DNA of 64,000 nt from a virus. Taxonomy: Duplodnaviria; Heunggongvirae; Uroviricota; Caudoviricetes. Below are positions 13,395-13,465 of the stretch, one piece after another. Under the pieces are notes generated by a model. The model was not told where the DNA came from and did no database searches. It worked only from the letters and a program-made list of their open reading frames with translations. Both the position numbers and the translations under genes were made by a program. Within the stretch, counting starts at the first letter, position 1; each line of letters starts with the position of its first letter. Location of the stretch: the IMG/VR virus record IMGVR_UViG_3300028591_000088; one strand, 5' to 3'.

Positions 13395-13465
13395 AGACCC
13401 ATCGTCTAGTGGTAGGACACCCAACTCTAAATTGGGAAACGACAGTTCGAATCTGTATTGGCACA
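13395..13465 (+). tRNA. tRNA-like gene with anticodon CTA (would read UAG, amber suppressor); acceptor stem does not pair canonically
   Basis: D-arm gtctagtggtaggac. Anticodon arm cccaa-ctctaaa-ttggg. 4-nt variable loop. T-arm gacagttcgaatctgt. The end coordinates are approximate. Confidence 0.4.

What the first reader, a model, noticed from the sequence alone, without database searches (positions are those of the whole stretch)
13395..13465. tRNA-like gene with a CUA anticodon (amber suppressor), and candidate in-frame TAG readthrough sites
The anticodon arm cccaa-cTCTAaa-ttggg is a clean 5-7-5 hairpin. Its positions 34-36 read CUA, which would decode UAG. The D-arm (gtctagtggtaggac) and T-arm (gacagttcgaatctgt) are canonical, although I could not pair an acceptor stem, so it may be atypical or degenerate.

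Only 8 of roughly 150 genes in the window end in TAG. At 61772-61774 a TAG interrupts an otherwise continuous 461-codon frame, 61424-62806, with 135 stop-free nt between the two track ORFs and a ligase-type KxHGT motif downstream. At 31390-31392 a TAG separates two same-frame ORFs, 30955-31392 and 31426-31617.

Established knowledge: some large phages, including crAss-like phages and some jumbo phages, carry suppressor tRNAs and recode TAG in late genes.

This looks like partial or stage-specific amber suppression here. TGA is clearly a genuine stop in this genome, because many ATGA overlaps use it.
Basis: partly seen in the sequence, partly recalled or inferred. Interest (0 to 1): 0.7.

Follow-up and report, generated by a model that had tools for sequence, protein, structure and literature searches.

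The report
Atypical amber-suppressor tRNA in recoding phage
A large gut or rumen phage carries a conserved but oddly built tRNA-like gene that reads the UAG stop codon, and the same phage has genes full of in-frame UAGs, so it very probably re-codes UAG (most likely as glutamine) in selected genes: a known phage trick, here served by an unusual tRNA.

Summary
The tRNA-like gene is real. Rfam's tRNA model scores 13399-13461 at 37.5 bits (cut-off 29), with clean D and anticodon arms and a T arm of 4 bp plus one mismatch, and a CUCUAAA loop (anticodon CUA, 13427-13429). ARAGORN misses it at default settings, because the acceptor stem at the normal position pairs at only 3 of 7 positions.

The element sits directly 5' of tRNA-Ile in five related phage lineages. 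Its loop never varies, and six stem pairs show compensatory double changes, so it is not a decaying pseudogene.

- **TAG at 61772:** a true CAG-to-TAG interruption of a conserved 460-aa RNA ligase. Two strains share it, and both sides remain under purifying selection.
- **TAG at 31390:** an ordinary stop.
- **TAG elsewhere in the window:** it ends about 8-10 genes. All genes here are early or replication genes.
- **Just outside the window:** 1.1-2.7 kb upstream in the same genome lies a 545-codon ORF with 13 in-frame TAGs and no TAA or TGA. A sister strain has a different ORF at that place with 20. Codon usage marks both as coding.

TAG is therefore a sense codon in selected genes, and this element is the only CUA candidate seen.

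**Verdict:** a gene-specific amber-recoding phage with a structurally aberrant suppressor tRNA. The suppressor's activity is inferred, not shown. This is a new variant of a known kind.

The parts
13389..13465 (+). tRNA-like gene with anticodon CUA. This is the 77-nt ARAGORN low-threshold call; the Rfam core is 13399-13461.
   Evidence: Conserved directly 5' of tRNA-Ile(GAU) in five lineages.
13420..13436 (+). Anticodon arm: stems 13420-24 and 13432-36, loop CUCUAAA 13425-31, anticodon CUA 13427-29.
   Evidence: The loop is invariant in 5 lineages. 3 of 5 stem pairs carry compensatory or wobble changes and none is broken.
13404..13418 (+). D arm of Glu type, GTCT / AGTGGTA / GGAC.
   Evidence: it is near-identical to the D arm of the window's tRNA-Glu at 23329. 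One compensatory pair, C-G to G-C, in L171.
13441..13457 (+). T arm: 4 bp plus a G.A mismatch at its base, loop TTCGAAT.
   Evidence: One compensatory pair, A-U to G-C, in two lineages.
13390..13395 (+). 5' strand (TGCCGA) of the only conserved closing ('acceptor-like') helix. It pairs with 13458-13463 (TTGGCA). An 8-nt connector, GACCCATC (13396-13403), separates it from the D stem, where a normal tRNA has 2 nt.
   Evidence: The TGCC/GGCA core is kept in all five lineages. G.U becomes A-U in L146, and one pair is lost on both strands in L020. Position 1-72 never pairs.
13458..13463 (+). 3' strand of the closing helix.
13344..13353 (+). 5' arm (AAGAAGTCGT) of a 10-bp outer helix that encloses the whole element. 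It is followed by the motif CAGCAA.
   Evidence: 100% complementary to 13467-13476. G-C becomes U-A in L171, a compensated change. In L172 the helix survives as a plain hairpin with the tRNA body deleted.
13467..13476 (+). 3' arm (ACGACTTCTT) of the outer helix. It ends 4 nt before tRNA-Ile (13481).
61424..62806 (+). RNA ligase gene of 460 codons, interrupted by one in-frame TAG.
   Evidence: PHROG 968 spans residues 8-447. More than 100 uninterrupted homologues of 455-465 aa.
61772..61774 (+). In-frame TAG (codon 117), derived from CAG (Gln).
   Evidence: L002-L004 have CAG and L011 has CAA at this position. The same TAG is in L005 (a second strain) and in L179 and L180. It lies inside helix 113-124 of the confidently modelled N-terminal domain.
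31390..31392 (+). Ordinary TAG terminator. It is not part of the system and is listed because the finding cites it.
   Evidence: Homologues end at the same position with TAA or TGA.

Best explanation
The window comes from a phage of roughly 190 kb with 34% G+C, of the gut/rumen Bacteroidales (Prevotella-type) gene pool. The phage uses two readings of UAG.

- **Early genes.** Replication and repair genes are written in the standard code. There TAG terminates about 8-10 genes.
- **Selected genes.** In some genes TAG is a sense codon. A strain-variable ORF just upstream of the window carries 13-20 in-frame TAGs. A GIY-YIG gene in a close relative carries two. The RNA ligase in the window carries one.
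- **The decoder.** Reading these genes needs a UAG-decoding tRNA. The element at 13389-13465 is the only CUA-anticodon RNA among the 21 tRNA-like genes (20 ARAGORN calls plus this element) of the array.
- **The amino acid.** It most likely inserts glutamine. The body is Glu/Gln-type, and CUA suppressors are commonly charged by GlnRS (established knowledge). That would restore the ancestral Gln117 of the ligase.

The tRNA is non-canonical. Its closing helix has 6 bp and lies 8 nt from the D stem. The whole body sits in the loop of a 10-bp leader hairpin. It would therefore need endonucleolytic release (RNase P and RNase Z type) and CCA addition before it could act.

**Shown:** the RNA structure is under selection; TAG is sense in some genes of this genome; the ligase amber allele is maintained under purifying selection.

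**Inferred:** this RNA is the decoder, it is matured and aminoacylated, and the amino acid is Gln.
For: **The RNA**
- Rfam tRNA model 37.5 bits, above GA 29.
- The loop CUCUAAA has U33 and A37A38. By my recollection that is the context of classical efficient amber suppressors.
- Syntenic conservation in window, L019, L146, L020 and L171.
- 94.3% of cells are paired. 6 pairs change on both sides (0/500 shuffles reach this; slid controls give 0-1).
- A more distant relative, L174, has a fully canonical tRNA(CUA).

**Recoding**
- L177 is 100% identical to window 1-12112. Its frame 894-2531 has 545 codons free of TAA and TGA, with 13 TAGs.
- L176 5636-7147 has 20 in-frame TAGs and no in-frame TAA or TGA.
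- Chance of 545 codons without TAA or TGA is about 2e-14, by my arithmetic from the trinucleotide counts.
- Both ORFs have coding-type codon usage in that frame: 0.574 and 0.594 bits per codon. Forty window genes give 0.529 +/- 0.096, and shifted frames at most 0.07.
- CAG makes up only 2 of 15 Gln codons in each ORF, against 129 of 386 in window genes.
- The L171 GIY-YIG gene has 2 in-frame TAGs across a conserved domain.
- The source gene callers read TAG as sense on six related contigs.

**The ligase**
- CAG became TAG, and two strains share the TAG.
- 14 synonymous against 2 non-synonymous codon differences between the strains, including 3 synonymous and 0 non-synonymous upstream of the TAG.
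- The TAG lies inside the folded N-terminal domain.

**Context**
- Proteins resemble those of Lak and crAss-like phages. Those groups re-code TAG to Gln (bioRxiv 10.1101/2021.08.26.457843; PMC9523058).
Against: - No canonical acceptor stem. ARAGORN default does not call it.
- The closing helix has only 4-6 bp, position 1-72 never pairs, and the base of the T stem is mismatched in every lineage.
- I know of no functional tRNA with an 8-10-nt acceptor-to-D connector.
- Both ends are locked in a covarying outer helix, so no free 3' end exists before processing.
- L172 and L175 lack the element at this site, yet their contigs were also gene-called with TAG as sense. Another suppressor may therefore lie elsewhere in such genomes, and perhaps in this one outside the window.
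- Relatives that carry the element have no in-frame TAG in about 4,700 aligned codons of conserved early genes.
- The TAG-rich ORFs have no homologue in Pfam, PHROGs or the phage collection, so the encoded amino acid could not be read from alignments.
- A Ro60 homologue and a family of stem-closed cassettes in the same array offer a non-decoding role for tRNA-like RNAs.
Confidence: 0.65

Rival explanations
1. The element is not a decoder. It is the tRNA-like module of a Y-RNA-like non-coding RNA that partners the phage's Ro60 homologue (7279-9069). The 5'/3' outer helix takes the place of the acceptor stem, as described for Deinococcus Yrn1. UAG would then be decoded by another tRNA elsewhere in the genome.
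For: - The 596-aa protein has DUF2828 plus DUF7788, and Pfam vWA_Ro60 at 26 bits against a cut-off of 27.7.
- Its AlphaFold model (pLDDT 84) has Ro60/TROVE structures as its top nine PDB matches over the full length (best 9kop, a phage Ro60, E 5e-8).
- Bacterial and phage Y RNAs lie near Ro60 genes and mimic tRNA. Yrn1 has an 'anticodon arm' between its D-like and T arms (PMC4201824; PMC12135203).
- The element has no free acceptor end, and its outer helix covaries.
- It is one of at least 8 'AAAGAG-stem + (A/T)CAGCAA' cassettes in the array. ACAGCAA occurs 22 times against 7.9 +/- 2.8 expected.
Against: - The 7-nt loop with U33, CUA and A37A38 is invariant while its stem covaries. That fits codon reading, and no known Y RNA needs it.
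- The genome demonstrably needs a UAG decoder.
- Rfam YrlA does not match this element. Its only hit is weak and lies elsewhere (16.9 bits against GA 69, at 16090-16218).
- The outer hairpin exists without the tRNA body in L172. Similar hairpins precede ordinary tRNAs (Asn, Asp, His). The helix therefore looks like a leader hairpin rather than a Ro60 site.
- Binding is untested.
Confidence: 0.15
2. The ligase TAG is not read through. It is a tolerated nonsense mutation: the N-terminal domain is lost, and the catalytic C-terminal domain is made separately from the ATG at 61910 (M163), independently of any suppressor.
For: - M163 is specific to the TAG-bearing lineage; uninterrupted relatives have Thr or Gly there.
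- M163 lies in a disordered linker between the two domains.
- The C-terminal part remains under purifying selection, with 11 synonymous and 2 non-synonymous differences.
- The source gene callers list 116-aa and 298-aa products.
Against: - A restart at M163 would drop residues 118-162. These include invariant positions (E136 F137 D138, E141 H142, K145, F147, K152 Y153) and three strands of the N-terminal domain.
- Codons 1-116 show 3 synonymous and 0 non-synonymous changes since the TAG arose. That argues the N-terminal fragment is still selected.
- Segment 118-162 keeps coding-type codon usage and no stop.
- TAG is demonstrably sense elsewhere in the same genome.
Confidence: 0.2
3. The element is a decaying relic of a former suppressor tRNA with no present function.
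For: - Degenerate acceptor, and not called by ARAGORN at default.
- Lost by deletion in L172 and absent in L175.
Against: - Six compensatory pairs, no broken pair in the D and anticodon stems, and an invariant loop across lineages whose flanks have diverged by 15-25%.
- The non-canonical closing helix and its connector are themselves conserved in all five lineages.
Confidence: 0.05

Closest known systems
Phage-encoded amber suppressor tRNAs with TAG-to-Gln recoding (genetic code 15) in gut phages: crAss-like, Lak and other clades (Borges et al., bioRxiv 10.1101/2021.08.26.457843; Peters et al., PMC9523058)
   Same: - Low-G+C phage of the Bacteroidales gene pool, with a tRNA(CUA) in a large tRNA array.
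- TAG is sense in some genes, while replication genes stay in the standard code.
- TAA is the preferred stop, and TAG aligns with Gln at the one alignable site.
- Relatives of this phage also re-code TGA (L006 and L007).
   Different: - In the DNA seen here recoding is sparse and gene-specific: one codon in 64 kb of early genes, and 13-20 in a single strain-variable ORF.
- The suppressor lacks a canonical acceptor stem and lies inside a leader hairpin.
- Structural and lysis genes could not be inspected.
Theta (HDV-like) ribozyme-associated suppressor tRNAs of gut phages (Kienbeck et al. 2024, PMC10879173)
   Same: - Same ecosystem.
- tRNAs without an encoded CCA.
- An RNA-ligase gene in the genome.
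- The idea that unusual maturation of tRNA-Sup controls the code switch.
   Different: - No theta-ribozyme motif in the window or in nine related loci.
- The sequence is absent from that paper's supplementary tables.
- Only about 15 nt separate the element from the next tRNA.
- NCBIfam's library, which as I recall includes a DRB0094-family model, gave no match to this ligase.
Bacterial and phage Y RNAs (YrlA, Yrn1) bound by Ro60 (Chen et al. 2014, PMC4201824; Thermus phage phiLo Ro60, PMC12135203)
   Same: - A Ro60-fold protein is encoded 4 kb away.
- The RNA has a stem formed by its 5' and 3' ends, plus a tRNA-like module in Yrn1-type order (D, anticodon, T).
   Different: - It has a perfect 7-nt CUA anticodon loop.
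- No YrlA covariance-model match, and no GNCGAA-type motif recognised.
- The protein is a DUF2828-type Ro60 relative rather than a Pfam TROVE member.
- Binding is untested.
Classical E. coli amber suppressors (supE, supF) and non-canonical suppressor tRNAs such as allo-tRNAs (from memory, not checked here)
   Same: - Anticodon loop CUCUAAA.
- An anticodon one mutation away from a Glu(CUC) or Gln(CUG) tRNA.
- Allo-tRNAs show that CUA tRNAs with odd acceptor and T geometries exist in metagenomes.
   Different: Here the oddity is a 6-nt insertion between the acceptor strand and U8. It is not an 8/4 or 9/3 stem arrangement or a long variable arm.

Membership tests
Canonical bacterial-type elongator tRNA | 7-bp acceptor stem joined to the D stem by 2 nt | tested here: not met
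   3 of 7 pairs at the canonical position. The conserved closing helix has 4-6 bp and lies 8-10 nt upstream. ARAGORN default is negative.
Canonical bacterial-type elongator tRNA | D arm with G18 G19; 5-bp anticodon stem; 7-nt loop with U33 and a purine at 37 | tested here: met
   covariation.
Canonical bacterial-type elongator tRNA | 5-bp T stem with a TPsiC-type loop | tested here: inconclusive
   The loop TTCGAAT is present. The stem has 3-4 bp, with 1-2 mismatches at its base in every lineage.
Canonical bacterial-type elongator tRNA | Score above the Rfam RF00005 gathering threshold | tested here: met
   37.5 bits against 29, as a local match to model positions 5-66 only.
Canonical bacterial-type elongator tRNA | Processed to a CCA-ended RNA and aminoacylated | not testable with these tools
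   Needs tRNA-seq or charging assays.
Phage stop-codon recoding system (code 15 type) | tRNA with anticodon CUA encoded by the phage | tested here: met
   13427-13429; invariant in 5 lineages.
Phage stop-codon recoding system (code 15 type) | Genes with multiple in-frame TAGs but no in-frame TAA or TGA | tested here: met
   L177 894-2531 has 13 TAGs in the same genome, outside the window. L176 5636-7147 has 20. Codon usage is coding-type. Inside the window only the ligase has an internal TAG.
Phage stop-codon recoding system (code 15 type) | In-frame TAG aligns with Gln in homologues | tested here: inconclusive
   One alignable site: CAG or CAA in the four closest homologues, other residues in distant ones. 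CAG is depleted in the TAG-rich ORFs. Those ORFs have no homologues to align.
Phage stop-codon recoding system (code 15 type) | Recoding concentrated in structural and lysis genes; coding density rises by 5-10% or more under the alternative code | not tested
   Late genes lie outside the window and could not be fetched. The source gene callers used TAG as sense on long related contigs, which is only indirect evidence.
Y RNA / Ro60 RNP | Ro60 (TROVE + vWA) gene nearby | tested here: met
   7279-9069. Foldseek's top nine hits are Ro60/TROVE (E 5e-8 to 3e-5). Pfam vWA_Ro60 is just below its cut-off.
Y RNA / Ro60 RNP | Match to a Y RNA covariance model or conserved Ro-binding motif | tested here: not met
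   No Rfam Y-RNA-type hit on 13344-13476.
Y RNA / Ro60 RNP | Bound by Ro60 | not testable with these tools
   Needs EMSA or RIP.
ATP-dependent RNA ligase (PHROG 968 / PF09414) | Nucleotidyl-transferase motif I lysine (KxHGT) within a full-length match to the family | tested here: met
   PHROG 968 E 1e-34 over residues 8-447. K211, H213, G214 and T215 are invariant. Pfam PF09414 matches only weakly (16.7 bits against 27). No NCBIfam model matches.

The most novel reading that the evidence does not exclude
The suppressor is made as an inactive precursor. Its ends are locked in a leader hairpin, its acceptor strand is displaced by a conserved 8-nt connector, and it belongs to a family of 'stem + ACAGCAA' cassettes in an array that also encodes a Ro60 homologue. 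Regulated maturation of this RNA, by RNase P/Z or by a Ro60-exonuclease complex, would then time the switch from the standard code to TAG = Gln during infection. That would be a new way of controlling a genetic-code switch, and a first functional link between Ro60/Y-RNA-like systems and recoding.
Probability: 0.12. Interest if true: 0.85.

Novelty: new variant of a known kind. Interest (0 to 1): 0.62.

Why it matters
Stop-codon recoding in gut phages is established, but two things remain open: how the switch is executed, and why many recoded phages seem to lack a detectable suppressor tRNA. This case bears on both.

- **A hidden suppressor.** The locus shows a conserved CUA tRNA that a standard tRNA finder misses, because its acceptor end is re-arranged and buried in a hairpin. 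If this form is functional, part of the 'missing suppressor' problem is a detection problem. It would also widen what a working tRNA can look like.
- **Sparse recoding.** One essential-looking repair gene carries a single amber codon, and one strain-variable ORF carries 13-20. This could represent an early or deliberately limited stage of code change.
- **A possible regulatory layer.** The neighbouring Ro60 homologue, the Pnkp and RNA ligase pair, and the repeated stem-closed RNAs suggest an RNA-processing layer that can be tested directly.

Tried and rejected
1. **Canonical acceptor stem.** It pairs at only 3 of 7 positions. ARAGORN's alternative D arm is contradicted by the D-stem covariation.
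2. **Read-through at 31390.** Rejected, because homologues stop at the same place.
3. **Other in-frame TAGs in window genes.** Every candidate from reciprocal tblastn lay in a 5' untranslated stretch or in the wrong frame. The TAA/TGA-free off-frame run at 60128-60739, with 9 TAGs, is non-coding by codon usage.
4. **+4 context of TAG codons.** It does not separate the ligase TAG from the terminators.
5. **Theta ribozymes.** None in the window or nine related loci, and the sequence is not in that paper's tables.
6. **Megablast against GenBank phages.** No match. tblastn of the TAG-rich ORF also found nothing.
7. **An over-loose DNA pattern.** It wasted one viral scan on chance hits and ordinary tRNA-Glu genes. 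The two-arm pattern gave only chance hits beyond the known relatives.
8. **Genome-collection scan.** It returned only unrelated MAG contigs, which I did not examine further.
9. **Crude stop-free-run coding density under recoded stops.** Not discriminating.
10. **Reaching late genes.** Walking from the left flank failed. Extra strains of the upstream ORF could not be obtained, because contigs break at that variable region.
11. **NCBIfam naming of the ligase.** No model matched. The sequence search against PDB was also negative.
12. **AlphaFold model of the ligase C-terminal domain.** Too poor to use.

Full report
**What the window is.** The 64 kb have 33.8% G+C, and essentially all genes lie on the + strand.
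- ARAGORN finds 20 tRNAs and a tmRNA between 5.6 and 23.6 kb.
- The rest encodes replication, nucleotide-metabolism and repair functions: primase, DnaB, Sak4, exonuclease, NrdD, RecD-like helicase, DNA ligase, RNA ligase and a sigma-70 factor. No structural or lysis gene is present.
- Megablast finds nothing among GenBank phages.
- Proteins resemble those of crAss-like and Prevotella Lak phages at 50-70% identity.
- Close relatives are metagenomic contigs of about 160-195 kb.
- Contigs from ERZ27256846 and SRR7634034 are 100% identical to parts of the window.

**The tRNA-like gene.**
- Rfam's tRNA model matches 13399-13461 at 37.5 bits (cut-off 29), but only over model positions 5-66.
- ARAGORN at default settings is silent. 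At 80% threshold it reports a 77-nt tRNA(cta) at 13389-13465.
- The D arm is almost identical to that of the window's tRNA-Glu.
- The T arm has 4 bp plus a G.A mismatch.
- At the normal position the acceptor strands pair at only 3 of 7 positions.
- Instead TGCCGA (13390-95) pairs with TTGGCA (13458-63). This leaves an 8-nt connector (GACCCATC) before the D stem, where a normal tRNA has 2 nt.
- The whole body is enclosed by a perfect 10-bp helix, 13344-53 with 13467-76, which ends 4 nt before tRNA-Ile.

**Is it under selection?** I found the orthologous element, always directly 5' of tRNA-Ile(GAU), in four further lineages:
- L019/L001/L152, a 192.6-kb contig;
- L146;
- L020/L141/L148;
- L171, a 188-kb contig, where ARAGORN calls it at default settings.

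The 7-nt loop never changes. The stems do change, and the changes are compensated.
- Anticodon stem: CCCAA/UUGGG becomes CUCAC/GUGAG, CCCAG/UUGGG or UCCAA/UUGGA.
- D stem: C-G becomes G-C.
- T stem: A-U becomes G-C.
- Outer helix: G-C becomes U-A.
- Closing helix: G.U becomes A-U in one lineage, and one pair is lost on both strands in another.

On the MAFFT alignment, 94.3% of cells pair and six pairs change on both sides. No shuffle of 500 reaches this, and slid controls give 0-1. The odd closing helix and connector are themselves conserved. This is a functional RNA, not a decaying pseudogene.

The element is not universal. In L172 the body is deleted and only the outer hairpin remains. L175 lacks it. 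L174 has a fully canonical tRNA(CUA) at another place.

**The two TAG sites.**

*Site 31390.* Eleven homologues of the 145-aa protein end at the same position with TAA or TGA, so this TAG is a plain terminator.

*Site 61772.*
- One PHROG 968 'RNA ligase' match spans the TAG.
- More than 100 homologues of 455-465 aa are uninterrupted.
- The closest relatives have CAG (Gln) at that codon.
- The same TAG occurs in a second strain, L005, which is 99.5% identical. It also occurs in independent assemblies identical to the window.
- Since the TAG arose, the two strains have accumulated 14 synonymous and 2 non-synonymous codon differences in the gene. Three of the synonymous ones lie upstream of the TAG.
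- An AlphaFold model of a 92%-identical homologue places codon 117 inside a helix of a confidently folded N-terminal domain (residues 1-155). The possible restart codon M163 falls in a disordered linker.
- M163 is Thr or Gly in uninterrupted relatives, so a split-gene reading cannot be dismissed. It would, however, discard invariant residues 136-153.

**Is TAG re-coded genome-wide?**

*Within the window: no.* TAG ends 7 of 92 ORFs of at least 70 aa, or 10 of 107 of at least 50 aa. Reciprocal tblastn against all related loci finds no other in-frame TAG in a conserved protein.

The window holds only early genes, though. In known recoded phages such genes often stay in the standard code (bioRxiv 10.1101/2021.08.26.457843).

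*Just outside the window: yes.* I fetched flanking DNA through exact-protein look-ups.
- In L177, which is 100% identical to window 1-12112, a 545-codon frame lies 1.1-2.7 kb upstream of window base 1. It has no TAA or TGA and carries 13 TAGs.
- In the 99.2%-identical strain L176, the same place holds a different gene with 20 in-frame TAGs and no other in-frame stop.
- The chance of 545 codons without TAA or TGA is about 2e-14, by my arithmetic from the counts.
- Both ORFs have codon usage typical of this phage's genes in that frame, and not in the shifted frames (0.574 and 0.594 bits per codon against 0.529 +/- 0.096).
- Both are poor in CAG: 2 of 15 Gln codons each, against one third in window genes.
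- Neither ORF has a Pfam, PHROG or phage-database match.

Two further observations point the same way.
- L171, which carries the orthologous CUA element, has a GIY-YIG endonuclease gene with two in-frame TAGs across its conserved domain.
- The gene calls supplied with six related contigs contain in-frame TAGs and never end in TAG. Their callers therefore chose a TAG-sense code. This is only indirect evidence.

**Synthesis.** TAG is a sense codon in selected genes of this phage, so a UAG decoder is needed. The element at 13389-13465 is the only CUA RNA in the array.
- Glutamine is the most likely amino acid. The ligase codon derives from CAG, CAG is depleted in the TAG-rich ORFs, and GlnRS commonly charges CUA suppressors (established knowledge; also argued in the Borges preprint).
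- Maturation and charging of this RNA remain unproven, given its missing canonical acceptor and its enclosure in a hairpin.
- No theta ribozyme, the 3'-processing device reported next to many gut-phage suppressor tRNAs (PMC10879173), is present.

**A rival raised by the neighbourhood.** The 596-aa protein at 7279-9069 (DUF2828 plus DUF7788) models with pLDDT 84. Its best nine PDB matches are Ro60/TROVE proteins over the full length, led by the Thermus-phage Ro60.

Ro60 partners are Y RNAs. In bacteria and phages these mimic tRNA, and in Deinococcus Yrn1 they have the same D, anticodon, T order closed by a 5'/3' stem (PMC4201824).

The array also holds at least eight cassettes of the form 'AAAGAG-stem, ACAGCAA, variable loop, complementary arm'. 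ACAGCAA occurs 22 times against 7.9 +/- 2.8 expected. The CUA element sits in one of them.

I rate a purely Y-RNA-like, non-decoding role at about 0.15, for three reasons:
- the anticodon loop is exactly what a UAG reader needs;
- the outer hairpin exists without the body in L172;
- similar hairpins precede ordinary tRNAs.

A regulatory link between these cassettes, Ro60 and suppressor maturation is the most novel reading that remains open.

**Verdict.** The system is a new structural variant of phage amber-suppressor recoding. Confidence that this RNA is the decoder is about 0.65.

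Noticed in passing
L177 894-2531 (window coordinates about -2736 to -1099) and L176 5597-7147: A strain-variable locus just upstream of the window. 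Two unrelated ORFs of about 500 codons occupy it, with 13 and 20 in-frame TAGs and no TAA or TGA. Codon usage is coding-type and neither has a database homologue. Assemblies of other strains break at this spot.
   Followed up: partly
window 7279-9069: A Ro60-fold (TROVE-like plus vWA) protein of the DUF2828/DUF7788 type, encoded inside the tRNA array. The top nine Foldseek PDB hits are all Ro60/TROVE (best E 5e-8).
   Followed up: yes
window 9595-9664, 11535-11708, 12691-12754, 13229-13311, 13344-13476, 14134-14381, 16075-16271, 21897-21967: A family of at least 8 stem-closed cassettes: an AAAGAG-type 10-bp arm, then (T)TACAGCAA, a variable loop of 40-170 nt, then the complementary arm.
- Four end 4-6 nt before a tRNA (Asn, Asp, Ile, His).
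- The arms covary between relatives.
- The motif equals 10 of 11 nt of the Dictyostelium Class I RNA motif as I recall it, and Rfam RF01414 gives sub-threshold hits (24.1 bits against 41.5).
   Followed up: partly
window 16075-16352: A composite tRNA-like region.
- A T arm plus CCTCCC lies upstream of GGGAGG plus a D arm, which is the YrlA-like permuted order. Rfam YrlA gives a weak hit of 16.9 bits.
- It overlaps a tRNA-model match (24.8 bits) that has a 69-nt insert in place of the anticodon arm.
   Followed up: partly
window 13227-13312: A degenerate tRNA-like element: a 12-bp stem enclosing a GGGTTCAAATCCC T arm (tRNA model only 13.8 bits). The stem shows compensatory changes in L171, L172 and L020.
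   Followed up: partly
window 9669-9756, 12518-12600, 21328-21412, 22559-22649: tRNA-Asn (88 nt) and tRNA-Gln (91 nt) have long paired variable arms. tRNA-Thr has an 11-nt and tRNA-Pro a 14-nt variable loop. These are class-II-like shapes in tRNAs that are normally class I.
   Followed up: no
window 1504-2726 and 3147-5600: Two TerD-domain genes and an 817-aa PMCA-type Ca2+ P-type ATPase (TIGR01517, 621 bits against a cut-off of 507) in a phage genome.
   Followed up: no
window 20295-20668: A phage-encoded tmRNA (Rfam 75 bits) with tag peptide AKVVVMTPRTVAIAA.
   Followed up: no
L006 and L007 (homologues of window 59923-61131): More distant relatives (168-kb and 57-kb contigs) have 3-4 in-frame TGA codons in their DNA-ligase homologue, one of them at a Trp column. 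TGA recoding therefore occurs in the same wider phage group.
   Followed up: partly
L171 1129-1758: A GIY-YIG homing-endonuclease gene with two in-frame TAGs and no other stop. It lies next to tRNA-Asp in the 188-kb relative that carries the orthologous CUA element.
   Followed up: partly
L168 about 10235: A single TGG-to-TAG change at the conserved Trp of the DWEC motif in a DUF5662-like gene of a 164-kb relative. Its sister contig L165 has Trp there.
   Followed up: no
L179 12186-13082 (about 2.2-3.1 kb beyond the window's right end): A polynucleotide kinase-phosphatase (AAA_33 plus HAD_PNKP) gene. Together with the RNA ligase it forms a T4-like tRNA-repair pair.
   Followed up: no
L174 6123-6197, L172 6298-6390, L001 9374-9446, L020 15982-16053: ARAGORN reports tRNAs with non-standard anticodon loops (2- or 4-base 'anticodons') in several relatives.
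   Followed up: no
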